DNA from: an uncultured Candidatus Saccharibacteria bacterium
Lineage (GTDB): Bacteria; Patescibacteriota; Minisyncoccia; Phycocordibacterales; DATGWK01
DNA length: 64,000 nt
Reading direction: 5' to 3'
NCBI GenBank assembly: GCA_964492195.1
Contig: CAZBJL010000002.1
Coordinates: 25,472-89,471 of the forward strand
Below are positions 7,398 through 46,797 of the stretch, piece after piece. Numbering within the stretch: position 1 is the first letter of the stretch; every line of letters starts with the position of its first letter. The position numbers were made by a program, and so were the translations under genes. The notes under the pieces are model-generated. The model searched no databases. It saw nothing but the letters and a program-made list of their open reading frames with translations, and had not been told where the DNA came from.

Positions 7398-9659
7398 CTA
7401 CCTATTAGAATTGTTTGAAATTCCATTTGCTGTAGCCCATGCTTGGACGCCGTATTCCCAATATTTAAACTGTGGATCATCAGAAGGGTTTGAAGGAATC
7501 GGACCCCGAGGATCGTTTTTATCTACCCAGTAGAGGATAGAGTGAACTCCACCAGAAAGAATTTCACCCAGGTCTTCGACCGGAGTAGAGTCTCGAGCAG
7601 CTCTGTTGGTGTCTGTATCGACGACTGAAGAAATGCCACCTTCCCATCTTCCTCGAAGGACAGGTTTTAGATCCAAACCATTTTCTACGACGGGTCTTTG
7701 GAATTTTGTATCAGGAACTTTTTTGAGTGCTTCTGCCATGACGTTGTGCCAGTACGGAGCAATAATAAAGGCCGCAACCTTTCTTTCCATCGAACTGTTG
7801 TCATTGTTTCCGGCCCAGGCGGCGATAGCGATGTCTGGGGTGTATCCGACAGTAATCGCGTCTTTGTAGTCGTTTGTGGTACCGGTTTTCACCGCAACGT
7901 CACGTCCTGCAAAATGAAGAGGGGAATTATATCCAAAGGCTGGAGCGCGAGCTTGTTCGTCTGACAATACGTCAGAAATTTGTTCGGCAATTTTTGCATC
8001 GAGGACACGAGTTGGGTTTGTTGTTGATTTTTCCAAAGTGTTTCCGTTTTTATCTTTTACTTCAAGAATCATGCGGGGTGCATTTCGTACACCTTCGTTC
8101 GCAAAGACGCTGTATGCACTTGTGAGGTCGAGGAGAGAGACTTCGCCACCTCCAAGGACGAGTGTGAGGCCGTACTGGCCGATGTTTGTGAGGCTTTGGA
8201 TTCCCATACTCTGTGCAAGTTTGAGTGTGTCAGTCATACCTGAAAGATAAAAGGTTTTGATCGATGCAATGTTGATCGACTGGGCCAACGCATCTCGCAT
8301 GCTCATCGGGCCGTGATACTTTCCGTCGTAGTTTACAGGCATGTAGCAGTGTGACGATGAGTTGATTGGTTTTCCGTCGACAGTACATGTTGTTGAAAAT
8401 TCTGTTGGAACGTCGAAAACAACAGTTTCTGGAGTAAAACCTTTTATGAATGCTTCGGCATACGCAAATGGTTTGAAGGCAGAACCCGGCTGACGATGAG
8501 CGGTGGTGATGTTGAAGTTACCGCTGATTTCTTTGTCGAAATAATTTCTTGAACCAACCATAGCGAGAACGTCGCCAGTTTTGGGTTCAATTGCGACGAG
8601 GCCAATGTTTTCTGCGTTAAAATTCTTTTTATTTTCTGTTGCTTGTTTCAGAGCGAGTTCCTCGGCTTTTTTCTCGAGGTCGTAGTCGAGTGTGGTGATG
8701 ACGCGGAGTCCTCCTTGTTCGAGAACTTGTTCGCCATATTTTTGGACAAGTTGGTTTCGAACTTCCATGACGAAGTGTGGCGCTTTTATACCGAACGCTT
8801 CTTGTGGTTGGAAGGTTACGACTTCAGCTTTTGCTTGGTCATATGCATCTTTTTTAATGAAACCGTTTCGAAGCATTTCACTCAAGACAAGATTTTTGCG
8901 GGCGTCGAGTTCTGCTTTGTGTGAACCGTACGGCGAATAGTATGTCGGTGCTTTTGGAAGTGCGGCGAGGTATGCAGACTCGGCGAGGGTAAGGTCTTTT
9001 GACGATGTCGCAAAAAATGCTTGGCTCGCTTCTTCAACGCCGTACAAATTTCCGCCGAAGGGGATTTCGTTGAGATAAATGTTGAAAATCTCATCTTTTG
9101 TGAGGATTTTTTCGAGTTTCGGGGCGAGTACCCATTCTTTTATCTTTCGTGAAATCTGCTTTTCGTCAGTCAAAAGAGCGTTTTTGATGACTTGTTGTGT
9201 GATCGTTGAACCACCTTGGTTGTAGCCAAGGCCTGTGATGTTGGCAAACACAGCGCGAAGGATTGAGGAAATTCTAATGCCGTTATGTTGGTAGAAGTTA
9301 ATGTCTTCGATAGCCAACACAGCTCTTTTGGCGTTTGGTGAAATATCTTCAAACGGAACCACGGTGCGTTTTACGTTTTGAAATACGTCGTAGAGGAGCA
9401 CTTCGCCGGTGCGATCATAGATTTTTGTGGATTGGGTAACCGCACGATCCTGGAAAGATTCGAGGTTTGGAATTCTCCAGCTCGAAATCCAGAGCAAAAA
9501 GAGAGCGGCGACAAAGACAAATACACCAGCTCCTACTGTTGCGGTTCGGAGCGCAAAAGGCTTATTTATTTTGGGGATTTTGATTTTTTTCACAGTTTTT
9601 CTATTTACCCGCGCGACACACAACAGAAGTAATAATAAAATCAATATTATCACAATCAC
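7398..9659 (-). CDS. class A penicillin-binding protein (transglycosylase + transpeptidase), PBP1A-like
   Basis: N-terminal TM, GT51 motifs (EDINFYQHNGI, RISSILRAV), transpeptidase SxxK (SAFKPF), SxN and KTG (KTGTT). Confidence 0.85.
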   Translation of the reverse strand: MIVIILILLLLLLCVARVNRKTVKKIKIPKINKPFALRTATVGAGVFVFVAALFLLWISSWRIPNLESFQDRAVTQSTKIYDRTGEVLLYDVFQNVKRTVVPFEDISPNAKRAVLAIEDINFYQHNGIRISSILRAVFANITGLGYNQGGSTITQQVIKNALLTDEKQISRKIKEWVLAPKLEKILTKDEIFNIYLNEIPFGGNLYGVEEASQAFFATSSKDLTLAESAYLAALPKAPTYYSPYGSHKAELDARKNLVLSEMLRNGFIKKDAYDQAKAEVVTFQPQEAFGIKAPHFVMEVRNQLVQKYGEQVLEQGGLRVITTLDYDLEKKAEELALKQATENKKNFNAENIGLVAIEPKTGDVLAMVGSRNYFDKEISGNFNITTAHRQPGSAFKPFAYAEAFIKGFTPETVVFDVPTEFSTTCTVDGKPINSSSHCYMPVNYDGKYHGPMSMRDALAQSINIASIKTFYLSGMTDTLKLAQSMGIQSLTNIGQYGLTLVLGGGEVSLLDLTSAYSVFANEGVRNAPRMILEVKDKNGNTLEKSTTNPTRVLDAKIAEQISDVLSDEQARAPAFGYNSPLHFAGRDVAVKTGTTNDYKDAITVGYTPDIAIAAWAGNNDNSSMERKVAAFIIAPYWHNVMAEALKKVPDTKFQRPVVENGLDLKPVLRGRWEGGISSVVDTDTNRAARDSTPVEDLGEILSGGVHSILYWVDKNDPRGPIPSNPSDDPQFKYWEYGVQAWATANGISNNSNR

Positions 9660-9693: not shown

Positions 9694-10920
9694 ATGTTTA
9701 AGAATTTTTTCTCAAGTTCCGCTTCTGGTGCTTCGACGGATGCCGGTATGATACACGAAATCCTCACTCGTGGCGTGGAGGAGATTTTTGTTAAGGAAAA
9801 TCTGGAAAAGCGTCTCCGATCAGGCAAAAAGCTCCGAATTAAGTTTGGAATTGATCCAACAGGCAAAAATATTCACCTCGGTAATGCAATTCCTCTTTTA
9901 AAACTCCGCGCATTTCAGAATCTTGGACACAAAGTTGTGTTGGTGGTGGGAGATTTTACAGCACAAATCGGCGACCCGTCCGACAAACTCGAAAAACGCC
10001 CAATGCTTACTGACGCGGATATTGCCCAAAACCTTATCGGATACAAAAAACAACTCGGAAAAATTATTGATTTGAAAAAAGCTGAAATCGTTCATAACAG
10101 TTCATGGCTTTCAAAACTTACATTTGAAGAAATTTGTCGCTTGGCGGAAAGTTTTTCTGTGCAACAGATGACAAATCGACGTAATTTTAAAGAGAGAATC
10201 GAAAATGGCACCGAAGTTTCGCTTCGAGAATTTCTATATCCGCTCATGCAGGGCTATGACTCCGTGATGACTCGGGCGGATGTTGAACTTGGTGGTTTCG
10301 ATCAATTGTTTAATCTAAAAGCAGGCCGAACGATTCAGAAACATTATGGAATGGTTGAGCAGGATATTGTCGCAGGCAAAATGCTTCTCGGTACTGACGG
10401 CAGAAAAATGTCGAAATCGTGGGGAAATACGATCAATGTCACCGACGAACCAAACCAAATGTTCGGCAAGGTGATGGCGATTCGAGATGAATTAATGCAG
10501 GATTATTTTTTGCTTTGCACAGATATGCCGCACGCTGATGCAGAAAAAATCGGTGCGCGAATCGAAACAGGGGAAAATCCTCGAGATCTCAAACTTGATC
10601 TCGCAGAACGAATCGTAACGTTGTACTGGGGTGTAAACGCTGCAAAAAAAGCTCGAACGGATTTCATTGAAACATTTAGTGAAAAGAAAATTCCAACAGA
10701 CATCAAAACGGTCCACGTAAATCCTGGCACGAAGCTTGTCGATGTCATTCTTTCCGAAAAACTTATTGAATCAAAAACAGAATGGCGAAGGTTGGTGGGT
10801 GAGGGAGCGGTGACTGATGCCGAAGCAGGGGTTGCTGTCACAGACGCAAACGGTGTCGCTGAAGGAAAAACATATCGGATCGGAAAGAGACGCTGGATAA
10901 AAATTGAAATAAAGAGTTAA
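9694..10920 (+). CDS. tyrS: tyrosyl-tRNA synthetase
   Basis: Class I HIGH (GIDPTGKNIHLGN), VVGDFTAQIGDPSDK, KMSKS; C-terminal S4-like domain; pattern matches TyrRS rather than TrpRS. Confidence 0.75.
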   Translation: MFKNFFSSSASGASTDAGMIHEILTRGVEEIFVKENLEKRLRSGKKLRIKFGIDPTGKNIHLGNAIPLLKLRAFQNLGHKVVLVVGDFTAQIGDPSDKLEKRPMLTDADIAQNLIGYKKQLGKIIDLKKAEIVHNSSWLSKLTFEEICRLAESFSVQQMTNRRNFKERIENGTEVSLREFLYPLMQGYDSVMTRADVELGGFDQLFNLKAGRTIQKHYGMVEQDIVAGKMLLGTDGRKMSKSWGNTINVTDEPNQMFGKVMAIRDELMQDYFLLCTDMPHADAEKIGARIETGENPRDLKLDLAERIVTLYWGVNAAKKARTDFIETFSEKKIPTDIKTVHVNPGTKLVDVILSEKLIESKTEWRRLVGEGAVTDAEAGVAVTDANGVAEGKTYRIGKRRWIKIEIKS

Positions 10921-10950: not shown

Positions 10951-11085
10951 CTACATATCTTTTTCCTCTTCTTCTACGGGGAGATCTTCTCCTTCGACGT
11001 GCATACCACTTGCAGTGAGTTCGTCCTCACCGTCGTTGTCTAAGCCGTCGTCGTAGACTTCCATTGCATCACGCGTATCCTCCAT
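10951..11085 (-). CDS. small acidic protein (44 aa), hypothetical
   Basis: Hand-translated MEDTRDAMEVYDDGLDNDGEDELTASGMHVEGEDLPVEEEEKDM; may be co-transcribed downstream of ruvC. Confidence 0.25.
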   Translation of the reverse strand: MEDTRDAMEVYDDGLDNDGEDELTASGMHVEGEDLPVEEEEKDM

Positions 11086-11189
11086 GTTTATTTTGAAAAA
11101 ATTTACTTTTATAATTTACAAACTATGTTGCCCCCATGTTGTATCAAATTTAAAAAAACTTGGCAAGAAAAAACACATGTTTTTGTCGA

Positions 11190-11693
11190 TTATTGCTTTG
11201 CAAATTTGCTGTGACGACACGCAAGGTGAGTGAGTCCGACGGCGATTGCATCGTACTCGTCGTCTAGCTTTGGTTTTTTCTCCATCTTGATGAGCCGGGA
11301 AACCATGTCGGTGACGTGAGTTTTGTCGCTTCGGCCGTAGCCTGTGACCGCAACTTTTACTTCTATTGGTTTGTAGTAAAAAACTTCTACGGCAGAGCGC
11401 GTGGCTTCATAAATAATGACCCCGAGAGCTTGGGAAACGAGGAGGGCGGTCGTTTGGTTTTTACTAAAGAAAAGCTCTTCGATAGCGAGGGAATGAGGCG
11501 ACCATTCTTGTATGAGCTTTGAAATCGTTTCGCCTACAATACCAAGTCGTTTTTCGTGCACATTTTTTCGGTCGGTGGTGATGCAGTCAGAAAAAAGGAG
11601 AGTTGATTTGCCGTTTTCTTCTTTTATCACTGCAACGCCAAGTCTGTCATAGCCCGGGTCGATAGCGAGAACAATATGCTCGGAATGTTTCAT
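11190..11693 (-). CDS. ruvC: crossover junction endodeoxyribonuclease RuvC
   Basis: IVLAIDPGYDRLGVAV start, RNase H-like fold, catalytic D/E positions; 4-nt overlap with upstream yebC. Confidence 0.85.
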   Translation of the reverse strand: MKHSEHIVLAIDPGYDRLGVAVIKEENGKSTLLFSDCITTDRKNVHEKRLGIVGETISKLIQEWSPHSLAIEELFFSKNQTTALLVSQALGVIIYEATRSAVEVFYYKPIEVKVAVTGYGRSDKTHVTDMVSRLIKMEKKPKLDDEYDAIAVGLTHLACRHSKFAKQ

Positions 11694-12217
11694 TCGGCAT
11701 TAGTATACACCGCTTGAACATCGTCATTTTCTTCGAGTTCGGTGATGAGTTGGTCGAGTTTTGCTACGTCTTCGTCCGCAAGTTCCATTGTTGTGTTTGG
11801 TTTCCAGCCTTCAGCGGATTTTTCAAATGCCCACGATGCTGCGCCCATGCCGGCGAGTTCGTAGCCGTTTCGAGAAAGAATGTGTTTTATTTCTTGCACC
11901 GCTTTATTTTTGTTGTCGGTAAGTGTGTCGATGATGAGCGCGCATCCGCCGGGGCCGTAGGCTTCGTACATTGCGGACTCCATGACTGTGGAATTGTCTG
12001 TTGATTTTTTTACTGCGCGGTCGATGCTGTCGTTTGGCATATTGATAGCTCGCGCACGGTCGATGATTGCTTTGAGCGTGGGGCTATTTTTGTCGCCTCC
12101 AACTTTTTTCGCTTCGACGGTAATGAGTCGAGAAAATTTTGAAAAGGCTTTGCTTTTTTGAGCATCTGTTTTTCCTTTCTGTCTTTTGATTTGCGCCCAT
12201 TTATTATGTCCGGCCAT
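11690..12217 (-). CDS. YebC/PmpR-family regulator, shortened (internal domain missing)
   Basis: MAGHNKWAQIKRQKG... N-terminus and DDVQAVYTNAE C-terminus match YebC, but 175 aa versus about 245 aa. Confidence 0.75.
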   Translation of the reverse strand: MAGHNKWAQIKRQKGKTDAQKSKAFSKFSRLITVEAKKVGGDKNSPTLKAIIDRARAINMPNDSIDRAVKKSTDNSTVMESAMYEAYGPGGCALIIDTLTDNKNKAVQEIKHILSRNGYELAGMGAASWAFEKSAEGWKPNTTMELADEDVAKLDQLITELEENDDVQAVYTNAE

Positions 12218-12340
12218 AGTGGTTTATATAGTAATGGAAGGAAAAATCGAGGGCAAGCGCGAGGAAAATATGTTGACACTGCCATGCCAATAACCGATAC
12301 TTTCCGCAGATCATCGTACACATTCAAAAAGGAGGTAAAA

Positions 12341-12808
12341 ATGTCACACACCGATTTCCCGTCAATTTGCACTGCCTCTACCCATGTGGCAGTTGTCGTG
12401 TGTGTCACGACATTTTTTGAGAGAGTGCTCAACAACGAAACGACGAGTTCAGTACCCGAAGCGGCACTTTTTGCCCTCAAGGAGCGGTTTTTCAATCCCG
12501 TCCTCGATGGAGTTCTGATCGGCCGTGGTCATGTGAAGAAGGGTGCAGATCACGGGTTTGCAATTCAAAATTACGGAATTGCGTTCCGCGTGTTCCAGGC
12601 TCTCACCCCATGTAGATCGCAGGCCCAGATCGAGAAGGACATTGAGCCGAAGATCGAGCTGTATTCGAGCCTTACCGAGAAAGCCCGCAAAGGACTGCTG
12701 AACCTGAAGGATGCGTGCACTCTCAAAGATCTCAATGAAATGCGTTTGTTTTTGCGAGAGCTCGCAAAGCAAGGAGGAGCACATCGGCTTTCGTGTGGAG
12801 GATCCTAG
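12341..12808 (+). CDS. hypothetical protein (GC-rich insert)
   Basis: Strong SD aaaaggaggtaaaaATG; local GC about 52% versus about 40% in neighbours; followed by terminator. Confidence 0.45.
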   Translation: MSHTDFPSICTASTHVAVVVCVTTFFERVLNNETTSSVPEAALFALKERFFNPVLDGVLIGRGHVKKGADHGFAIQNYGIAFRVFQALTPCRSQAQIEKDIEPKIELYSSLTEKARKGLLNLKDACTLKDLNEMRLFLRELAKQGGAHRLSCGGS

Positions 12809-12815
12809 AAAACAA

Positions 12816-12846
12816 AGACCGTTCGAGTGGACGGTCTTTTATTTTG
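12816..12846 (+). terminator. rho-independent terminator
   Basis: agaccgttcgagtggacggtct hairpin + tttatttt. Confidence 0.5.
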
Positions 12847-12927
12847 CTTCAATACTTTACAAACATGTTTTAATGTGATATTTATATTGCAGATCATAGA
12901 GGCAACACACAACACAGGAGGTGAATT

Positions 12928-13404
12928 TTGGAAGATCTGCTTACCAGAGAAGATCGGCACGAGAGGGAGAGGTCGATAAGTGGAGAGATGAAGGTATTCT
13001 TGGATCGCTTGAAAAATAGGGCCTTGCTTCAACACGGAGAGAGTTTGCAGATAAAGGTTGTTCCGCAGCAAGGCCCTGATATGTTTGTGTACACAACAAT
13101 TACTCCTCCGGGTCCGCTGTTAAGGACTGAAAATCCTAATTCTTACTCAAAATTTACAGGGAAGGTTCTTACCGAGGAGGACTGGACCATAATCCTCAAC
13201 CTGCCATGGCGAAAACAAGCGACGTTGGTGAGGGAACTGAAAGACAGAAAGAACAACCCACCAAAAAAGAGAGAAATTACCCTTGCTGTGGTTGGAAGCA
13301 TCAACCGCACTTTTAGGAATAATAAATCTCCCTATCGCCTCCGAGTGTCTCAACGCAGTAGGGATTCAGAAGAAGGTCACTACGCAATCGTTCATGTTTC
13401 GTGA
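12928..13404 (+). CDS. hypothetical protein (TTG start; GC-rich insert)
   Basis: SD aggaggtg 4 nt before TTG; 158 aa; own terminator. Confidence 0.4.
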   Translation: MEDLLTREDRHERERSISGEMKVFLDRLKNRALLQHGESLQIKVVPQQGPDMFVYTTITPPGPLLRTENPNSYSKFTGKVLTEEDWTIILNLPWRKQATLVRELKDRKNNPPKKREITLAVVGSINRTFRNNKSPYRLRVSQRSRDSEEGHYAIVHVS

Positions 13405-13410
13405 TTCCCA

Positions 13411-13439
13411 AGCCCGTCCGAAAGGTCGGGCTTTTTTTA
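13411..13439. terminator. bidirectional terminator (hairpin with GAAA loop + T7)
   Basis: gcccgtccgaaaggtcgggc + ttttttt; overlaps the ruvB stop codon on the other strand. Confidence 0.5.
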
Positions 13440-14465
13440 TAGCAACGCCCCTCGTTCGTGTGGTGGAGAATCGATATGTTTGTACGCAGCGTCAGTTGCA
13501 ATGCGGCCGCGGGGAGTGCGTTCGATGAAACCAATCTGTAAAAGGTACGGTTCGTTAAATTCTTCGACGGTTGCTTCTTCTTCGGAAAGGGAAGCGGAAA
13601 GGGTGTTGAGCCCAACGGGGCCGCCTTTGAATTTTTTAATAATTGTTTCGAGAATTGATCGGTCAGATTGAGTGAGACCCATTTCATCGACTCCGAGGAG
13701 ACGAAGAGCTTCGTCGACAGATTTTTTGTCGAGTGGACGTTTGTGGATCTGGGCATAGTCACGGCATCGCTTCAAAAGATAATTCGCTGTACGTGGTGTG
13801 AATCGGCTTCGTTTTGCAATTTCTTTTATTGCGCCGTCATCACTTTCTACGCCAAGAATTTTCGCCGAGCGACGAACAATTTTTTCAATTTCGGCGTCAG
13901 TGTAAAATTCGAGTCGGAAAATACCGCCAGAGAAACGACTTCGAAGCGGAGCAGAAATCATGGCGATGCGTGTTGTTGCAGCGACGAGTGTAAACGGCGC
14001 GAGCTCAAGTTGAATCGTGCGCGCTGAAGGCCCTTTACCAATAACGATATCGAGTTGGCCAGTTTCCATTGCAGGGTAGAGGACTTCCTCGATCGCTTTG
14101 TTGAGGCGATGGATTTCGTCGATGAAAAGTAGATCTCCGGGTGCGAGGTTTGTAAGGATAGATGCAAGATCGCCAACTTTTTCTATTGCAGGGCCAGACG
14201 TAACTTTTATTTGCGTGTTGGACTCTTTGGCGATGAGGTGGGCGAGCGTCGTCTTACCGAGGCCTGGCGGGCCGTAAAAAAGAATGTGTTCTGGTGGATG
14301 GTTTCGACCCTTTGCAGCAGACAGAAGAATTTTTAAATTTTCTTTTATAGAATGCTGACCAATGTATTCATCAAAATTCTGCGGACGCAGTGTGAGATCA
14401 AGAAAAGAAGTTTCTTTTTTTGTTTCTTCGGTAATCTCGTTTTCTTCGTTCTGAATTTTTGACAT
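13437..14465 (-). CDS. ruvB: Holliday junction branch migration helicase RuvB
   Basis: Walker A GPPGLGKTTLAHLIA, Walker B DEIHRL, sensor 2 and winged-helix C-terminus. Confidence 0.9.
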   Translation of the reverse strand: MSKIQNEENEITEETKKETSFLDLTLRPQNFDEYIGQHSIKENLKILLSAAKGRNHPPEHILFYGPPGLGKTTLAHLIAKESNTQIKVTSGPAIEKVGDLASILTNLAPGDLLFIDEIHRLNKAIEEVLYPAMETGQLDIVIGKGPSARTIQLELAPFTLVAATTRIAMISAPLRSRFSGGIFRLEFYTDAEIEKIVRRSAKILGVESDDGAIKEIAKRSRFTPRTANYLLKRCRDYAQIHKRPLDKKSVDEALRLLGVDEMGLTQSDRSILETIIKKFKGGPVGLNTLSASLSEEEATVEEFNEPYLLQIGFIERTPRGRIATDAAYKHIDSPPHERGALL

Positions 14466-14476
14466 ATTGTTTGAGT

Positions 14477-16159
14477 TTAGAAAACCGGGAGATCAAGCAC
14501 TCGCACAAGTTCTTCTATCGTCGTGACTCCGGTGAGGACTTTGAGTATTCCGTCTTGATTCATGTCGAGGATATTTTGCGCAGCTGAAGCTTTTTTTACT
14601 TCGCGTTCGCTTGGGCTATTTTCCACAACTTCTTCGATGACTGCATCGCTCAATATCGCTTCAAAGATTCCGATTCGGCCTTTGTAGCCGGTATTATGGC
14701 ATTTGTCACAGCCGGCAGCTACCCACATATTTTTTGTTTGAACTCCGTCGGTGTATGTTTTGTCAGTAATTGTTCCTAACACCATATCGACAAGCTTTCT
14801 GTCGGTGTTTTTTATTTCCGTTTCCTTTTTACAGATCGGGCAGAGCTTTCGGACGAGTCGTTGAGCCATCGCAATGCTCAAAGACGACGTAATAACTTTG
14901 GGATTTACACCGAGGTCGATGAGGCGGGGGAACGTGCCGGCTGCGTTGTTAGTGTGAAGTGTTGAAAAGACCAAATGGCCAGTGAGTGCGGCGTTAATCG
15001 CGATCTCGGCAGTTTCATTGTCGCGAATTTCACCAACCATGATGACATCAGGGTCTTGGCGGAGCGCTGAACGCAATCCTTCGAGGAAGGTGTAGCCTTT
15101 TTCGGAATCAGTTTGGGTTTGGACGATGCCGGGCAAATGATATTCGATCGGATTTTCTATGGTGATTATTTTTATTTCCGGCGAATGAATTTTTTTCATG
15201 AACGCGTAGAGTGTTGTTGTTTTTCCGGAACCTGTTGGGCCGGTATTCAAAATCATGCCGTTTGGTTTTTTGATTTCGTGTTCGAGGATTTTGAGAAGGC
15301 GCGGATGAATGCCGAGTTCTTCGAGAGGAACTGCAATGGAATCGGGGTTCAAAATTCGAAGTACAATTGTGTCGTTGTAGGCACCTGGCAAAAGGGACGT
15401 TCGGATTTCAACTTCGCTGTCTTCGTACTTGATGCTGAAGCGTCCGTCTTGCGCTTTGCCTTTTGTGTTTAGTTTTAAATTAGAAAGGAGTTTGATGCGC
15501 GACAAAAGAAGGTTGTACGTGTCTGGGTCGAGACCAATGATGTTGGTGAGGATACCGTCGAGACGATAGCGCAAACCAACGTGCATTTCTTCTGGTTCAA
15601 AATGAATGTCTGATGCTCCAGTTGAAAGTGCTCCGGCAATAATGATTTCAAAAAGGCGAGAAATTCTGTAAATCTTTTTTGAAGCCAAAATTTCTTTAAT
15701 GAGTGCGGTGATGTCTGGGATACTTTGGACTTTTTTTGTGAAATCAACAATTTCTTCGTTGGAAATAGTGAGCGCGCCGCCTTTTGTTTCAAAAGAATAT
15801 GAAAGATCTTTGTAGCGTTCCCAGACTTTTTTCAAACTTTCCATTGAAACGAGAAATAGTATCGGCTCGTAATTTCGATTTTTCAAATCCTCAATGACGT
15901 CGATTGTTGCGGGGTTTTTTGGTGACAAAATGCCGAGTCGAACTTTTTTGTCGACCATGTGAAATGGTGCCACGTTCGCAGCTCGAGCCACGTCTTCTTT
16001 AATAATACGAAGCGCATCAATGTTTACCGGATAAATCGTGAGGTCGAGGTAGGGTAGGGCGTATTTTGCCGAAAGGATTTTGGTGAGATTTTCAGCTTCG
16101 AGTTTTTTGAGCTCGTCGATCCGATCATTTTGTTTTTGCTCATCAAATTCAAGGGCCAT
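14477..16159 (-). CDS. pilB: type II secretion / type IV pilus assembly ATPase (GspE/PilB family)
   Basis: Walker A TGPTGSGKTTTLYA, Asp/His boxes, C-terminal tetracysteine (CPICKK...CDKCHNTGYKGRIGIFE). Confidence 0.85.
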   Translation of the reverse strand: MALEFDEQKQNDRIDELKKLEAENLTKILSAKYALPYLDLTIYPVNIDALRIIKEDVARAANVAPFHMVDKKVRLGILSPKNPATIDVIEDLKNRNYEPILFLVSMESLKKVWERYKDLSYSFETKGGALTISNEEIVDFTKKVQSIPDITALIKEILASKKIYRISRLFEIIIAGALSTGASDIHFEPEEMHVGLRYRLDGILTNIIGLDPDTYNLLLSRIKLLSNLKLNTKGKAQDGRFSIKYEDSEVEIRTSLLPGAYNDTIVLRILNPDSIAVPLEELGIHPRLLKILEHEIKKPNGMILNTGPTGSGKTTTLYAFMKKIHSPEIKIITIENPIEYHLPGIVQTQTDSEKGYTFLEGLRSALRQDPDVIMVGEIRDNETAEIAINAALTGHLVFSTLHTNNAAGTFPRLIDLGVNPKVITSSLSIAMAQRLVRKLCPICKKETEIKNTDRKLVDMVLGTITDKTYTDGVQTKNMWVAAGCDKCHNTGYKGRIGIFEAILSDAVIEEVVENSPSEREVKKASAAQNILDMNQDGILKVLTGVTTIEELVRVLDLPVF

Positions 16160-16303: not shown

Positions 16304-16771
16304 ATGAAGTGCCTTGCCGTATTGTTTTGTCTGATTGTTTTCTCTGTTACTGGTTGTGGCCCAAGTCATGGCTACGTCCGTACAGGGAATCATGTGCTCG
16401 TGAGCTACGACGATTCCAATACGGTTGTTGTGAAGAACAACATCGGTGGTGCGGTTCTCACAAACCTCTCCGTTGGAGGCAACACAGTTGCTTTCGAAGG
16501 TAGCGGGGGTACAATCAAGCAAATCGAGCTTACTACTGGCCAGGAAATTTCAGTCGGCCTTGGGTATACCGGTCAGTATTCAAACTGGTATATCGAGGTT
16601 AAGGCCGACGTCTACGACCTTTCCGGACAGTACCTCGGTTTGGCTGTGAAGGAGATTCCGCTCCGACACAGCTGGAATGGAAATGGCTACGGATACACCG
16701 AGCTCGTCTCGAAGCTCTGCGTCATCGACGCCTTCAAGCCGGTGCGAAGTATCGAGAAGTCAAAATATTAG
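16304..16771 (+). CDS. putative lipoprotein, hypothetical (GC-rich)
   Basis: Lipobox FSVTGC after signal peptide; -35/-10-like ttgact-17-taatat upstream; followed by hairpin + T-run. Confidence 0.5.
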   Translation: MKCLAVLFCLIVFSVTGCGPSHGYVRTGNHVLVSYDDSNTVVVKNNIGGAVLTNLSVGGNTVAFEGSGGTIKQIELTTGQEISVGLGYTGQYSNWYIEVKADVYDLSGQYLGLAVKEIPLRHSWNGNGYGYTELVSKLCVIDAFKPVRSIEKSKY

Positions 16772-20575: not shown

Positions 20576-21121
20576 GTGAGTGCAATCTCTACTGTGGAGT
20601 CTGGGCCAAGAGCCGTTCAGTCACTCGGTTGTTTGAGGCAGGTCACGGGTGCAGAGAGGGTGGTCATTCCAGCTTTTCGGAGCACACGAACAATCGCAAG
20701 TGCGTTTCCGGAAGTTTTCAGTTTTGTGGCGAATGATTTTTTGCGTCCTGACGTGAACATTCCGCTCGAGGTGAATTCTCTCGACACGTCTGTTCGGGTC
20801 TGTGAACCATTTCGTGAGTGCTCGTTCGAAGAGATGTTCGGTGATTTCAACCCCGCGAGATACGATGAACTCTGCCTTTCGCAGGCGCACATCGTCAATT
20901 TTTTCCTTATTCCTGGTGTCGAACAGTTGTTGGCCAAGGTGGAGCCCATCACGTTGTTCCTTTTGAAGGTGGAAGACAGCTTCTCGGTTGTGAAGGTGTG
21001 TACACTTCCGAGTCGCAAACAGGAGGCGTCGATGTATCCACTCTCGCTTCTTCGCAACTGGAAGAGGATCACACAGATTCGAGTCGTCGTTCCGTGCTCG
21101 TTGTCGCCAGTTCCGACTTGA
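20576..21121 (+). CDS. hypothetical protein (GTG start), GC-rich orphan; coding status uncertain
   Basis: 181-codon ORF with gaggtg SD-like 5 nt upstream of GTG, bounded by promoter and terminator on + strand; local GC about 52%; a 206-aa antisense ORF also open. Confidence 0.35.
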   Translation: MSAISTVESGPRAVQSLGCLRQVTGAERVVIPAFRSTRTIASAFPEVFSFVANDFLRPDVNIPLEVNSLDTSVRVCEPFRECSFEEMFGDFNPARYDELCLSQAHIVNFFLIPGVEQLLAKVEPITLFLLKVEDSFSVVKVCTLPSRKQEASMYPLSLLRNWKRITQIRVVVPCSLSPVPT

Positions 21122-21130
21122 TCGTTTAAA

Positions 21131-21158
21131 CCCCCAGACATGTTCTGGGGGTTTTTGT
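21131..21158 (+). terminator. rho-independent terminator
   Basis: cccccagacatgttctggggg + ttttt. Confidence 0.55.
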
Positions 21159-21247
21159 TATGCCGGATTCTATTTTTAGAGTAATATGGCCTAGGAAAAA
21201 TGAATAGCTGTGTGCTGTTCGTGTCGATCTTTAACAAGGAGAATGAG

Positions 21248-29474: not shown

Positions 29475-29939
29475 ATGTCACTACAAACATTTGAAAGAGC
29501 ATTTGATATTCGACTCATTCATTTTTTCCGAAGAATTTTTATTCCTGTCGCTCGGTTTGCATTATTCGCGGTTTTTTTCTGGTTCGGACTTTTGAAAGTG
29601 CTTGGACTAAGCCCGGCAAGTGGGCTCGTCCAGCGTTTGTTTGAACAGACTATCCCATTTATGTCGTTCGGTACGTTTCTTATTTTGTTCGGGCTCTTTG
29701 AATGTATTATAGGCGTTCTGTTTCTTATACGAGGAGCGGAACGGATCGTCATTCCACTTCTTTTTGTTCATATGATCACAACGTTTGGTCCGCTCTTTTT
29801 ATTGCCTGAAGAAACGTGGTCTGGGTTTTTGGTACCAACACTCGAAGGTCAGTACATCATTAAAAATCTTGTGATTATTGCGACAGGAATAGGTATTGCT
29901 TCCCATATGCATCCGATGCATATCAGCACGAAAAGGTAA
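29475..29939 (+). CDS. hypothetical 4-TM membrane protein
   Basis: Four hydrophobic helices; start at MSLQTF. Confidence 0.4.
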   Translation: MSLQTFERAFDIRLIHFFRRIFIPVARFALFAVFFWFGLLKVLGLSPASGLVQRLFEQTIPFMSFGTFLILFGLFECIIGVLFLIRGAERIVIPLLFVHMITTFGPLFLLPEETWSGFLVPTLEGQYIIKNLVIIATGIGIASHMHPMHISTKR

Positions 29940-30000
29940 GTTCTTAATTTTTATAAAAGAAAAGGCCCGAACTTTTTGTTCGAGCCAATGTTGTGTGAGG

Positions 30001-30267
30001 TTATTCGCCCACGTAAGCAGCGGTGAGGCCGCTTTTGTCGCGAACAAAATCCTCAGCTTCTTTTTCGTGAAAGGTGGCCCAGCGTCTGACCGCCATATCA
30101 AATTCTCCTCGTTTTGTGCTGTCCTCCGTGAGCTCCATGCATTGTTCGGGTTTGAGGTTCGCGATTTTCTTGACACCTTCGACCAAGCTTGCTGGCCAGT
30201 GGGATGGGTTGGTTGCAAGCAAGTGGGGAATGAGCATTCCTTGTCGGTCTGTGTAATCACGAGGCAT
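30001..30267 (-). CDS. hypothetical small protein (GC-rich), downstream member of overlapping pair
   Basis: 88 aa, local GC above 50%, 11-nt overlap with upstream ORF. Confidence 0.4.
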   Translation of the reverse strand: MPRDYTDRQGMLIPHLLATNPSHWPASLVEGVKKIANLKPEQCMELTEDSTKRGEFDMAVRRWATFHEKEAEDFVRDKSGLTAAYVGE

Positions 30268-30508
30268 TGGTAACTCCTTCTGTGGTTTTCAGGTGTGCGG
30301 CGGCTTTTTCGACCACCGTGCGAGTGATCCGGGGATTTTCTATGGCCGTATTGCCATACGCAAAACTCTGCCGTTGTTCTTCCATCTCGGTCGGGGTCAT
30401 TACGTGCCCTCGAGCCTTTGCAACAAGCATGTCTAATCTGGTCTCCACAACTACCTCCTTTTTAAAAGATTCCATATTCAATAGTAAAGATTTGTGAAAA
30501 AATGACAA
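30257..30508 (-). CDS. hypothetical small protein, upstream member of overlapping pair
   Basis: 83 aa; may start at internal MESFKKE. Confidence 0.35.
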   Translation of the reverse strand: MSFFHKSLLLNMESFKKEVVVETRLDMLVAKARGHVMTPTEMEEQRQSFAYGNTAIENPRITRTVVEKAAAHLKTTEGVTNAS

Positions 30509-43401: not shown

Positions 43402-43947
43402 ATGAAAACGCTTTCAACAAAAAAAATCATTATCATTTCCGCAATTCTGATTGTGGTATTAATCGCAGGACACTTTGTGGTGTTTGGATTTATAAAAAAT
43501 TCTGCAACGACCGTTTCTACATTGGAGCGCGATATTAATTCACTGCAAGCTCAAGCAGTTGAGTTTTCAAAATACAGTCCAGAAGATCTCAAAAAACTCG
43601 CCGAGTCTGTGAACAGTCGAATTATTTCGCACACAGATTTTGTTAGTTTTATCGAAAAAATTGAGGCCACTGGTCGGGTACAGAATGTTCCCGTCATCGT
43701 TCGGTCTGTTAACGTTGAACCACGAAACATTGAAGACACCGCTGATGATAAAGAAATCATGCGTCTCAAACTTGAAACAACAGGAACATGGGAAAATACC
43801 CAGCGCTATATTAATTATCTCGAACATTTGCCGTACAAAATCGCTATCACCAACCTCGGCCTTTCAATACTCAAAACAGAAGGGAAGGCGAGCAGTACGC
43901 CGACCTGGCGTGGGCAAATTGAATTAACTGCACTGAAATTCAAATGA
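43402..43947 (+). CDS. pilO: PilO-like bitopic membrane protein
   Basis: Start 1 nt after pilN stop; TM + coiled-coil + alpha/beta region. Confidence 0.45.
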   Translation: MKTLSTKKIIIISAILIVVLIAGHFVVFGFIKNSATTVSTLERDINSLQAQAVEFSKYSPEDLKKLAESVNSRIISHTDFVSFIEKIEATGRVQNVPVIVRSVNVEPRNIEDTADDKEIMRLKLETTGTWENTQRYINYLEHLPYKIAITNLGLSILKTEGKASSTPTWRGQIELTALKFK

Positions 43948-44267
43948 AACTTTTCAATAAAGAAAAAAAACCAAGTAAAAATATCGTAAAGCCAAAGTCG
44001 ACTATGGCGGAAGTTACGATGCGCGATTGGAAGTTAATGCTCATCGTGTTTACCGTGCTCATTGTGTGCGCCGTTGGGATAGACGGATATCTTTCAGTAC
44101 GGGTGAATAGGGGCGACTTTTTTGTGGTGGAGCCGGAGTCTACAGTTAACCCAGCTACTGCGGGAAGGAAGAGTCTTCTCGATGCTGACAACTTTTTTGT
44201 GAATCGGGAGAAGGAGTACGAAAACTTCAAAGCCTCTGCCGTGCCCGAAATTGACCCCTCTATATAG
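43944..44267 (+). CDS. small bitopic membrane protein, pilus-operon associated
   Basis: 4-nt overlap with pilO-like gene; one TM helix. Confidence 0.35.
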   Translation: MKLFNKEKKPSKNIVKPKSTMAEVTMRDWKLMLIVFTVLIVCAVGIDGYLSVRVNRGDFFVVEPESTVNPATAGRKSLLDADNFFVNREKEYENFKASAVPEIDPSI

Positions 44268-44287
44268 CCCTGGTATATTTCGACAAG

Positions 44288-44359
44288 GTCCTCGTAGCTC
44301 AACGGATAGAGCAGTGCTCTTCTAAGGCATTGATGTAGGTTCGATTCCTACCGAGGGCA
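44288..44359 (+). tRNA. tRNA-Arg (anticodon TCT)
   Basis: Hand-folded: acceptor GTCCTCG/CGAGGGC, D arm GCTCAACGGATAGAGC, anticodon loop CTTCTAA (stem has two G-U pairs), T arm GTAGGTTCGATTCCTAC. Confidence 0.65.
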
Positions 44360-46702: not shown

Positions 46703-46785
46703 GCGCAGGTGGCGAAATTGGTAGACGCACTACCTTGAGGTGGTAACGCCCATCGGGCATGGAGGTTCAAGTCCTCTCCTGCGCA
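46703..46785 (+). tRNA. tRNA-Leu (anticodon GAG)
   Basis: 83 nt, acceptor GCGCAGG/CCTGCGC, anticodon loop TTGAGGT, long variable arm, T arm GGAGGTTCAAGTCCTCT. Confidence 0.75.
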
Positions 46786-46797
46786 CTGGTTTTTTAT

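What the first reader, a model, noticed from the sequence alone, without database searches (positions are those of the whole stretch)
12341..13439. Two GC-rich opposite-strand genes inserted between ruvC-yebC and ruvB
Genes at 12341..12808 (strong SD) and 12928..13404 (TTG start with aggaggtg SD) are each followed by a canonical terminator. They are about 50% GC and run opposite to the flanking yebC-ruvC and ruvB genes, which are usually close to ruvA/ruvB. Neither product is recognisable. Independent promoter/terminator units of foreign composition at a conserved housekeeping junction suggest a small acquired two-gene module such as toxin-antitoxin or anti-defence.
Basis: partly seen in the sequence, partly recalled or inferred. 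Interest (0 to 1): 0.5.

Follow-up and report, generated by a model that had tools for sequence, protein, structure and literature searches.

The report
Variable gene slot between ruvB and yebC
Two real but uncharacterised small genes sit between the DNA-repair gene ruvB and yebC in a Parcubacteria-type genome: one is a strain-specific orphan, the other belongs to a very rare, fast-evolving family that relatives carry at the same spot, and nothing supports a toxin-antitoxin or anti-defence pair.

Summary
The observation mostly holds. There are two + strand ORFs, 12341-12808 and 12928-13404. Each has a strong Shine-Dalgarno sequence and a stable intrinsic terminator, and both run opposite to ruvC-yebC and ruvB. 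Only ORF1 is GC-rich (51%; GC3 0.56). ORF2 (46%) matches its neighbours.

Synteny in about 25 relatives shows pilB-ruvB-yebC-ruvC with a ruvB-yebC gap of usually 14-135 bp. In the window the gap is 1219 bp, and six other relatives fill the same slot with different genes.

ORF2 is not an orphan. An exhaustive profile search found five further representatives among 1.84 billion proteins. A syntenic member fused to Clp_N (L004) and a cluster mate named as a Parcubacteria protein bring the family to nine proteins. Three members (L001, L045, L004) lie at the same position and in the same orientation. The family is small, basic (pI about 10) and matches no curated family. It looks ancestral to this genus-level clade and repeatedly lost.

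ORF1 has no relative anywhere. It occurs only here and has atypical codon usage.

The two genes are separate transcription units, and ORF2 homologues occur without ORF1. A toxin-antitoxin or anti-defence module is therefore not supported. Function remains unknown. My best guess for ORF2 is a nucleic-acid-binding small protein.

The parts
11190..11693 (-). ruvC (flank; 167 aa)
   Evidence: Pfam RuvC, E 4.7e-38. Syntenic in relatives.
11690..12217 (-). yebC/TACO1-family gene (flank; short form, 175 aa)
   Evidence: Pfam TACO1_YebC_N plus Transcrip_reg. The same length and position in relatives.
12223..12230 (-). -10-like TATATAAA box 6-13 nt upstream of the yebC ATG, with no SD. It is inferred to be yebC's own, leaderless-type promoter, which would make this junction a boundary between transcription units.
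   Evidence: Similar TAtAxT boxes lie at the same distance in L003, L004, L005, L024 and L038. Promoter function is inferred, not tested.
12273..12301 (+). Promoter-like site TTGACA-17-GATACT upstream of ORF1
   Evidence: 10 of 12 consensus matches. Such sites are about as frequent as chance in this region (5 found against 4.1 expected), so this is supportive only by its position.
12330..12336 (+). Shine-Dalgarno AGGAGGT of ORF1
   Evidence: Read directly from the sequence.
12341..12808 (+). ORF1: strain-specific orphan gene. 155 aa, pI 8.6, 5 Cys, predicted all-helical, GC 51.3%, GC3 0.555.
   Evidence: The called frame has the best codon score of six, but the score is low: 0.03 against 0.25 +/- 0.075 for long genes. 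Only a self hit among 5.8e9 proteins. No hit in metagenome or viral contigs, phages, plasmids or the PDB. AF2 pLDDT 44.
12814..12839 (.). Intrinsic terminator after ORF1: an 11-bp stem followed by UAUUUUGCUU. It also forms a hairpin on the - strand.
   Evidence: MFE -15.4 kcal/mol, z -3.4.
12916..12923 (+). Shine-Dalgarno AGGAGGTG of ORF2 (TTG start)
   Evidence: Read directly from the sequence.
12928..13404 (+). ORF2: member of a rare Parcubacteria-restricted family of small basic proteins. 158 aa from the TTG; alternative ATG at 12988 gives 138 aa. pI about 10.
   Evidence: Exhaustive hmmsearch found 7 representatives at E<=1e-3 among 1.84e9 proteins. A leave-one-out profile recovers ORF2 at E 1.7e-21. 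30% identity over 151 aa with the syntenic P0005, E 5e-15.
13162..13401 (+). Conserved C-terminal domain of ORF2. Motif: LTxxDWxxILxLPW(R/K)..Q(R)..L ... IN..FR...LPYRL. Predicted order is helix-helix-helix-strand-strand.
   Evidence: Alignment A3 has invariant W66, W74, N106 and Y116 in ATG numbering. Secondary structure comes from a low-confidence AF2 model.
13410..13437 (+). Intrinsic terminator of ORF2: hairpin AAGCCCGUCCGAAAGGUCGGGCUU plus U7, abutting the ruvB stop codon
   Evidence: MFE -16.1 kcal/mol, z -3.3. Equivalent hairpins follow the homologues in L001 and L045.
13437..14465 (-). ruvB (flank; 342 aa), convergent with ORF2
   Evidence: Pfam RuvB_N, E 4.9e-71, plus the AAA lid and RuvB_C domains.

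Best explanation
The ruvB|yebC junction of this Paceibacteria/Zambryskiibacteria-like genome is a permissive accessory-gene slot. It lies at a boundary between transcription units, the 3' end of ruvB and yebC's own promoter.

The slot holds two unrelated, independently transcribed monocistronic genes.
- ORF2 looks like the older resident. It belongs to a very rare, fast-evolving, Parcubacteria-restricted family of small basic proteins. That family occupied this slot in the ancestor of the genus-level clade and was later lost or replaced in several descendants.
- ORF1 is a later, strain-specific addition between the yebC promoter and ORF2. It has higher GC3 and atypical codon usage. The most likely origin is horizontal transfer from an unsampled donor of about 50% GC.

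The two genes do not form a functional pair.

Mechanism (inferred, not shown): the ORF2 product is most likely a cytoplasmic nucleic-acid-binding or adaptor protein. Its conserved basic C-terminal domain, predicted as three helices plus a beta-hairpin, would be the binding module. I give the nucleic-acid-binding reading about 0.3. No mechanism can be derived for ORF1 beyond 'small soluble all-helical protein'.
For: Slot:
- pilB-ruvB-yebC-ruvC is conserved in about 25 relatives, usually with a ruvB-yebC gap of 14-135 bp. The gap is 1219 bp in the window.
- The same slot is expanded with different content in six relatives:
  - L001, 715 bp: an ORF2 homologue.
  - L045, about 650 bp: an ORF2 homologue.
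  - L004, 2068 bp: a Clp_N-ORF2-like fusion plus a NYN gene.
  - L024, 487 bp: a zf-HC2 protein.
  - L021, 924 bp: unknown ORFs.
  - L030, 993 bp: a bPH_2 protein.
- L002 has a 163-bp gap that holds a structured element.
- A -10-like box sits directly upstream of the yebC ATG in close relatives.

ORF2 family:
- The exhaustive profile search gives 7 representatives at E<=1e-3.
- Leave-one-out profiles recover every member at E<=9e-9.
- ORF2 aligns with the syntenic homologue P0005 at E 5e-15.
- Members have pI 9.7-11 in 7 of 8.
- One member, P0009, is KKW12432.1 from a Parcubacteria MAG.
- An NJ tree of YebC plus RuvB places the carriers (L001, L045, window, L004) so that ancestral presence with later losses is the most parsimonious history.
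- ORF2 is about 30% identical to its homologues, while the flanking YebC/RuvB are 78-87% identical.

ORF1:
- No homologue in any search.
- No similarity to the slot genes of relatives.
- GC3 0.555 against 0.40 +/- 0.05. Its codon score is 4th lowest of 61 ORFs in the window.

Independence of the two genes:
- A strong terminator lies between them.
- ORF2 homologues lack an ORF1 partner everywhere.
Against: - Ancestral presence rests on a rough NJ tree of 261 columns and on species representatives only. Repeated lateral exchange of the cassette between relatives, through the conserved flanks, would give the same pattern.
- ORF2 also has a low codon score (0.01) and somewhat raised GC3 (0.487). 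Co-import of ORF1 and ORF2 from a higher-GC relative is therefore not excluded.
- No canonical -35/-10 pair was found upstream of ORF2. Some read-through from ORF1 is possible.
- No HTH profile matches.
- Expression of either gene has not been shown.
Confidence: 0.6

Rival explanations
1. One reading: ORF1 and ORF2 are a horizontally acquired two-gene toxin-antitoxin, defence or anti-defence module. One product would neutralise or work with the other.
For: - The two genes are adjacent, on the same strand and of similar size. Together they interrupt conserved synteny.
- Both have atypical codon usage.
- ORF2-family proteins evolve fast and are patchily distributed, as arms-race genes often are.
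Against: - A 119-nt spacer with a -15.4 kcal/mol terminator separates the genes.
- ORF2 homologues occur alone in L001 and L045, and with other partners in L004, L041, L042, L047 and L049.
- ORF1 occurs nowhere else.
- No significant Pfam, PADLOC or PHROGs match. The best are DpdD at E 0.026 for ORF1 and one family member matching Cas11b at 5.7e-5, a single hit among eight members that I did not inspect residue by residue.
- No phage or plasmid relatives.
- No mobile-element hallmarks.
Confidence: 0.07
2. Cassette exchange: the whole 1.2-kb ORF1+ORF2 segment was imported in one event from a higher-GC relative, by homologous recombination through the conserved ruvB and yebC flanks. On this view ORF2 was not inherited vertically in this genome.
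For: - Both ORFs have raised GC3 (0.555 and 0.487 against 0.40) and the 3rd and 4th lowest codon scores of 61 ORFs.
- Relatives that carry the family include 52%-GC genomes (L045, L041).
- The flanks are 78-87% identical at protein level within the clade.
- The Logan contig breaks 26 nt into yebC. This could reflect strain heterogeneity at the junction.
Against: - No donor is known.
- The insert has no nucleotide similarity to any relative.
- ORF2's GC (45.9%) equals that of its flanks.
- ORF1 is absent from all ORF2-carrying relatives, so at least one further event is needed.
Confidence: 0.2
3. ORF1 is not a functional protein-coding gene. It would be a chance ORF, a decaying remnant or a recently arisen proto-gene, and only ORF2 is a real gene.
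For: - No homologue among 5.8e9 proteins.
- Codon score 0.03, below the minimum of long genes (0.10).
- AF2 pLDDT 44.
- A terminator-like hairpin lies inside its 5' end at 12394-12412.
Against: - A 155-codon ORF (196 codons counted from stop to stop within the insert) has about a 2% chance in shuffles.
- It has a near-perfect SD at optimal spacing, a 10/12 promoter-like site 40 nt upstream and a strong terminator 6 nt after the stop.
- Its GC1>GC3>GC2 pattern has the same shape as real genes, and the called frame scores best of six.
- The internal hairpin is not significant (z -1.6).
Confidence: 0.12
4. The ORF2 family is an accessory factor of branch-migration or recombination helicases. It would work with RuvB (and with RecG elsewhere), which would explain its position.
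For: - Four members are convergent with ruvB (window, L001, L004, L045).
- One independent member (P0007, L047) lies 54 bp upstream of recG and in the same direction.
- The proteins are basic.
Against: - The four ruvB cases are one orthologous position, so there are only two independent associations.
- Other members sit next to class II aminoacyl-tRNA synthetases or a P-loop protein.
- Half of the clade and all outgroups keep ruvB without the gene.
- The orientation is convergent, so ORF2 and ruvB are not co-transcribed.
Confidence: 0.08

Closest known systems
Chromosomal hotspots or 'flexible islets' of accessory genes between conserved core genes (concept from comparative genomics of bacterial pangenomes; cited from my own knowledge, not from a paper read here)
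   Same: One interval between two conserved core genes holds different, mostly uncharacterised genes in different relatives. Composition is atypical. The flanking core genes are intact.
   Different: The slot is tiny, 0.5-2 kb with one or two genes. There is no integrase, tRNA, att repeat or phage gene. One occupant, the ORF2 family, appears to persist vertically rather than turn over.
Type II toxin-antitoxin pairs
   Same: Two adjacent small genes on the same strand, inserted among housekeeping genes.
   Different: The genes are not co-transcribed by design, because a terminator and a 119-nt spacer lie between them. There are no toxin or antitoxin domains. The partners do not co-occur in other genomes. 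Each product is about 155 aa.
Unnamed hypothetical proteins of Parcubacteria: KKW12432.1 (P0009), P0003-P0008, and the Clp_N-fusion protein in L004 (1946-3043)
   Same: They share the C-terminal domain with invariant W, W, N and Y and the LPYR motif. They are similar in size and basic charge. Three lie at the same ruvB|yebC position and in the same orientation.
   Different: Identity is only about 22-34%. N-terminal parts vary. The L004 member carries an N-terminal double Clp_N repeat that ORF2 lacks. No member has a known function.
Lineage-specific ORFan genes of Candidate Phyla Radiation genomes (general knowledge: a large share of CPR proteins have no annotated family)
   Same: ORF1 has no detectable homologue or domain. 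Of 15 other small ORFs of the window scanned against Pfam, 11 had no hit at E<=0.001.
   Different: ORF1 stands out even within this window, by GC3 and by interrupting a conserved junction.

Membership tests
Type II toxin-antitoxin module | Two genes in one operon, overlapping or separated by a few bases | tested here: not met
   A 119-nt AT-rich spacer holds an 11-bp-stem terminator (-15.4 kcal/mol, z -3.4). ORF2 has its own strong SD.
Type II toxin-antitoxin module | Recognisable toxin fold and/or antitoxin DNA-binding domain | tested here: not met
   No Pfam, NCBIfam, PADLOC or PHROGs hit below E 0.01 for either protein.
Type II toxin-antitoxin module | The two partners co-occur across genomes | tested here: not met
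   Eight other ORF2-family loci (L001, L004, L041, L042, L045, L046, L047, L049) have no ORF1 relative. ORF1 is unique among 5.8e9 proteins.
Type II toxin-antitoxin module | One product is toxic and the other neutralises it | not testable with these tools
   Needs expression assays.
Defence or anti-defence gene on a mobile element | Homology to known defence or anti-defence proteins | tested here: not met
   PADLOC best hits are DpdD at E 0.026 for ORF1 and none for ORF2. One family member matches Cas11b at 5.7e-5, a single hit among eight members.
Defence or anti-defence gene on a mobile element | Location in a prophage, plasmid or island with integrase, tRNA or att repeats | tested here: not met
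   Neighbours are a PBP1-type enzyme, Tyr/Trp-tRNA synthetase, ruvC, yebC, ruvB, a PilB-type ATPase and tsaE. The nearest tRNA is 9 kb away. There are no flanking repeats. tblastn against phages and plasmids finds nothing.
Horizontally acquired genomic islet at a hotspot | Interrupts synteny that relatives conserve | tested here: met
   The ruvB-yebC gap is 1219 bp here and usually 14-135 bp in relatives.
Horizontally acquired genomic islet at a hotspot | Different gene content in the same interval in different relatives | tested here: met
   The slot holds NYN, Clp_N-fusion, zf-HC2 and bPH_2 genes, unknown ORFs or a structured 122-nt element.
Horizontally acquired genomic islet at a hotspot | Atypical base composition and codon usage | tested here: inconclusive
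   Clear for ORF1: GC 51.3% against a window mean of 42.6%, and GC3 about 3 SD above long genes. Weak for ORF2: GC equals its flanks and GC3 is +1.7 SD. Both have low codon scores.
ORF2 family (unnamed small basic Parcubacteria proteins) | C-terminal domain with W..(7)..W, IN..FR and LPYR motifs, recovered by a family profile | tested here: met
   A leave-one-out profile built from the other 7 members scores ORF2 at 75 bits, E 1.7e-21 against 7023 ORFs. W66, W74, N106 and Y116 are invariant.
Clp_N domain protein (tested for ORF1, as a possible split version of the L004 fusion) | Match to Pfam Clp_N, or similarity to the L004 N-terminal half | tested here: not met
   No Pfam hit at E<=1. BLASTP against the L004 N-terminal half gives E 9.6.
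Winged-helix DNA-binding proteins (tested for the ORF2 C-terminal domain) | Three-helix bundle plus beta-hairpin wing, shown by a confident structure or a profile match | tested here: inconclusive

The most novel reading that the evidence does not exclude
The ORF2 family is a new, fast-evolving class of small basic effectors specific to Parcubacteria. They would act on nucleic-acid or AAA+ machinery: RuvB or RecG branch migration, or Clp-type unfoldases as the Clp_N fusion in L004 hints. One possible role is as a conflict or regulatory factor in these episymbiotic bacteria. ORF1 would be a newly captured partner or a proto-gene.
Probability: 0.1. Interest if true: 0.55.

Novelty: new member of a known kind. 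Interest (0 to 1): 0.25.

Why it matters
The finding shows that even the streamlined genomes of Parcubacteria keep small variable slots at boundaries between core transcription units. It also defines a previously unnamed protein family: 7 representatives among 1.84 billion proteins, plus a Clp_N-fused member and a cluster mate. The family has a conserved domain and a stable genomic address, which gives a handle on part of the CPR 'dark' proteome. It removes a false lead, since this is not a toxin-antitoxin or anti-defence module. No known biology changes unless the ORF2 family turns out to have a specific role with RuvB, RecG or Clp.

Tried and rejected
- Curated profile libraries (Pfam, NCBIfam, PHROGs, PADLOC) gave nothing for either protein. 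They also gave nothing for the family members.
- Rfam on 11000-15000 gave only sub-threshold chance hits.
- The word-indexed search of 5.8e9 proteins returned only self hits for both ORFs. With a 3-sequence profile it returned only P0003 in addition.
- Metagenome and viral contig scans found nothing with ORF1 or with the ORF2 alignment. A3 was too divergent to derive DNA patterns.
- tblastn against phages and plasmids found no match.
- PDB sequence searches found nothing significant.
- I looked for insertion scars (direct or inverted repeats) and for DNA similarity of the insert to relatives. There were none.
- I tested whether ORF1 is a diverged copy of a slot gene of relatives (Clp_N half, NYN, zf-HC2) or a paralogue of ORF2. 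It is neither.
- I looked for ruvA among eight ORFs of 181-209 aa in the window. It was not found, and the check was not exhaustive.
- Literature searches returned nothing useful on this lineage or locus.
Full report
**1. What is in the sequence**

The window has 42.6% GC. Its gene content is typical of a Patescibacteria (Parcubacteria/Paceibacteria) genome. The closest species representatives are MAGs labelled Zambryskiibacteriota, Paceibacterota or, loosely, 'Saccharibacteria'.

Three genes lie on the minus strand around the finding, all identified by Pfam:
- ruvC, 11190-11693.
- A short yebC/TACO1 gene, 11690-12217.
- ruvB, 13437-14465.

The next genes outward are a PilB-type ATPase (14477-16159), a Tyr/Trp-type aminoacyl-tRNA synthetase (9694-10920) and a class A PBP (7398-9659).

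- ORF1, 12341-12808: ATG start, 155 aa, SD AGGAGGT 4 nt upstream.
- ORF2, 12928-13404: TTG start, 158 aa, SD AGGAGGTG at 12916-12923.

The public annotation instead starts ORF2 at the ATG at 12988, giving 138 aa (P0002). The TTG start is better supported. It has the strong SD, and the alignment with the syntenic homologue P0005 runs from ORF2 residue 8 to the end.

Each ORF is followed by a stable hairpin plus U-run:
- 12814-12839: -15.4 kcal/mol, z -3.4.
- About 13410-13437: -16.1 kcal/mol, z -3.3.

A 10/12 promoter-like site lies at 12273-12301, 40 nt upstream of ORF1. No consensus pair passes the scan upstream of ORF2, where the spacer is AT-rich (34.5% GC).

**2. Are they genes?**

- In 2000 shuffles of the 1219-bp insert, the longest open run reached 155 codons in 1.9% of cases. 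The second-longest reached 138 codons in 0.1%.
- For both ORFs the called frame has the best codon log-likelihood of the six frames. The values are low, 0.03 and 0.01, against 0.25 +/- 0.075 for long genes of the window (minimum 0.10).
- The two ORFs rank 3rd and 4th lowest of 61 presumptive genes.
- ORF1 shows the GC1>GC3>GC2 shape of coding DNA, shifted upward: 0.574/0.413/0.555 against 0.496/0.380/0.403.
- An independent Logan assembly contig (L048, SRR12487045) is 100% identical to window 12192-15278. The ORF1-ORF2-ruvB-pilB arrangement is therefore not a binning chimera.

I conclude that ORF2 is certainly a gene (see section 5). ORF1 is very probably one.

**3. Composition**

The statement 'about 50% GC' is true only for ORF1.
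- ORF1 is 51.3% GC. The 99th percentile of 470-bp windows is 50.3%.
- ORF2 is 45.9%, indistinguishable from ruvB, yebC and ruvC at 46.4-46.8%.
- ORF2's GC3 (0.487) is moderately raised.

**4. Synteny**

A scan of one genome per species with RuvB returned 40 loci. tblastn with the neighbouring proteins shows the order pilB-ruvB-yebC-ruvC, with the aaRS opposite, in about 25 of them. The ruvB-yebC gap is usually 14-135 bp.

The window's gap is 1219 bp. The same interval is expanded in six relatives, with different content in each:

| Locus | Gap | Content |
|---|---|---|
| L001 | 715 bp | one opposite-strand ORF (ORF2 homologue) |
| L045 | about 650 bp | one opposite-strand ORF (ORF2 homologue) |
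| L004 | 2068 bp | Clp_N-containing protein plus a NYN-domain protein |
| L024 | 487 bp | zf-HC2 protein |
| L021 | 924 bp | unknown ORFs |
| L030 | 993 bp | bPH_2 membrane protein |

In L002, the relative with the most similar RuvB, the 163-bp gap has no ORF. It holds a 122-nt element with a 22-bp closing stem (-86.5 kcal/mol, z -9.1) and no Rfam match.

The junction is therefore a recurrent accessory slot. In close relatives a TAtAxT box lies 6-13 nt upstream of the yebC ATG, with no SD. This suggests, by inference only, that yebC has its own leaderless-type promoter. Insertions between the ruvB terminator and that promoter would then be harmless.

There are no mobile-element hallmarks:
- No flanking repeats.
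- No nearby tRNA.
- No nucleotide similarity of the insert to any relative.

**5. ORF2 belongs to a family**

The word-indexed search of 5.8 billion proteins found only ORF2 itself. However, the opposite-strand ORF in the L001 gap shares a motif with it (BLASTP E 3e-6). It was also the top non-self phmmer hit among 5457 local ORFs.

A profile of the two (A2), searched exhaustively against 1.84 billion representatives, returned 7 proteins at E<=1e-3: ORF2 itself, P0003 and P0004-P0008.

- P0005 lies on a 2-kb contig (L045), between yebC (85% identical to the window's) and ruvB (81%), in the same orientation as ORF2. It aligns with ORF2 over 151 residues at 30% identity, E 5e-15.
- The C-terminal 135 residues of the L004 Clp_N protein also belong to the family. 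A leave-one-out profile recovers them at E 9e-9.
- ORF2 itself is recovered by a profile of the other seven at E 1.7e-21.

The alignment (A3) shows invariant W66, W74, N106 and Y116. The motif is LTxxDWxxILxLPW(R/K)..QR..L...IN..FR...LPYRL.

Family properties:
- Members are 108-192 aa and hydrophilic. Seven of eight have pI 9.7-11.
- One cluster mate is KKW12432.1, a hypothetical protein of a Parcubacteria-group MAG.
- Outside this clade, members sit next to class II aminoacyl-tRNA synthetases (L041, L049), recG (L047) or a small P-loop protein (L042).
- None matches Pfam, PHROGs, PADLOC or the PDB convincingly.

**6. History**

An NJ tree from 261 shared YebC plus RuvB columns gives a genus-level clade:

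(L001,(L045,(window,L004,L002),(L003,(L005,L024))))

- The family is present in L001, L045, the window and L004.
- It is absent in L002, L003, L005 and L024.
- It is absent within 6 kb of ruvB in all outgroups.

The simplest reading is one gain at the base of the clade, followed by losses or replacements. ORF2-family proteins have diverged to about 30% identity, while the flanking proteins stay at 78-87%, so the family evolves fast. Lateral cassette exchange through the conserved flanks cannot be excluded with this sampling.

**7. ORF1**

- No relative among 5.8e9 proteins.
- None in metagenome or viral contigs.
- None in phage or plasmid records, or in the PDB.
- None among the 5457 ORFs of the window and the 40 related loci.
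- It is unrelated to ORF2.
- It is unrelated to the Clp_N half, the NYN protein or the zf-HC2 protein that occupy the slot elsewhere.
- The single-sequence AF2 model is all-helical but unreliable (pLDDT 44).

ORF1 is a strain-specific orphan lying between the yebC promoter region and ORF2. Its GC3 of 0.555 would fit a donor genome of roughly 50% GC. Such GC values occur among related Paceibacteria (L045 and L041 at 52%). This origin is inferred.

**8. Mechanism and rivals**

The toxin-antitoxin or anti-defence reading fails three features that could be tested:
- Operon structure.
- Recognisable domains.
- Co-occurrence of the partners.

The best-supported account is structural and evolutionary: a permissive slot, an older clade-specific resident (ORF2) and a recent orphan (ORF1), each expressed on its own.

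For function, the only indications for ORF2 are these:
- Strong positive charge.
- Lack of signal or transmembrane segments.
- A conserved C-terminal domain predicted as helix-helix-helix-strand-strand (low confidence).
- One fusion to the Clp_N protein-binding domain.

I commit, at about 0.3, to a nucleic-acid-binding small regulator or architectural protein. An adaptor role for AAA+ machines is the main alternative.

A link to branch-migration helicases is suggested by ruvB adjacency in one clade and recG adjacency in one other contig. That is only two independent observations.

**9. Verdict**

The locus is an ordinary small variable islet in a CPR genome. Its one mildly interesting component is a previously unnamed, very rare protein family with a conserved genomic address. 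Interest is low to moderate.

Noticed in passing
L002:7010-7131 (ruvB-yebC gap of the relative with the most similar RuvB): A 122-nt GC-rich element with a perfect 22-bp closing stem and two inner hairpins. RNA MFE is -86.5 kcal/mol, z -9.1. It has no Rfam match, and its arm sequence is found in none of the other 49 loci or in the window. It occupies the same slot as ORF1/ORF2. It could be a MITE-like remnant or a structured RNA.
   Followed up: partly
L004:1946-3043 (-) and L004:1232-1867 (-): In this relative the slot holds a 365-aa protein with an N-terminal double Clp_N repeat (Pfam E 1.6e-25) fused to the ORF2-family domain. It is followed by a NYN-domain (predicted RNase) gene.
   Followed up: partly
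L047:101-616 and 670-969: An ORF2-family member (P0007) lies 54 bp upstream of recG (RecG_wedge, E 2.8e-18), in the same direction. This is a second, independent adjacency to a branch-migration helicase.
   Followed up: no
L024:821-1132 (-): In this relative the slot holds a 102-aa protein with a zf-HC2 (anti-sigma-factor-type) zinc finger, E 4.5e-5.
   Followed up: no
window 11690-12217 (-): The YebC/TACO1 homologue is only 175 aa. The Pfam match to the second and third domain is split into two stretches. The same short length is conserved in all relatives. From memory, typical YebC proteins are about 240 aa.
   Followed up: no
window 12223-12230 (-), and the equivalent positions in L003, L004, L005, L024 and L038: A conserved -10-like TAtAxT box lies 6-13 nt upstream of the yebC ATG with no Shine-Dalgarno. 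This suggests a leaderless or very short-leader yebC-ruvC mRNA.
   Followed up: partly
window 12394-12412 (+): A terminator-like hairpin (7-bp stem plus T6) lies 54 nt inside ORF1. Its stability is not significant (-9.6 kcal/mol, z -1.6), so it is probably chance.
   Followed up: yes
window 16304-16771 (+): A 155-aa ORF whose N-terminus (MKCLAVLFCLIVFSVTGC) looks by eye like a lipoprotein signal. GC is 50% and GC3 0.587, the highest in the window, but its codon score is normal. No Pfam hit.
   Followed up: no
window 20576-21237, 29896-30273 and 43940-44302: Other small ORFs with high GC3 (0.54-0.59), very low codon scores and no Pfam hit. At 20.6-21.2 kb two long ORFs overlap on opposite strands. 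They may be further orphan genes or spurious ORFs.
   Followed up: no
window 46703-46786 (+): ARAGORN reports a tRNA of undetermined identity with a two-base 'anticodon' (tg), immediately upstream of tRNA-His.
   Followed up: no
L021:6958-7880 and L030:6934-7926: More distant relatives (RuvB 70% and 62% identical) have independently expanded the same ruvB-yebC gap. L021 holds two unknown same-strand ORFs in a 62%-GC genome. L030 holds a bPH_2 membrane protein.
   Followed up: no
L048 (= window 12192-15278): The independent Logan contig ends 26 nt inside yebC, exactly at the left edge of the insert. This might reflect an assembly-graph branch caused by strain variation at this junction.
   Followed up: no
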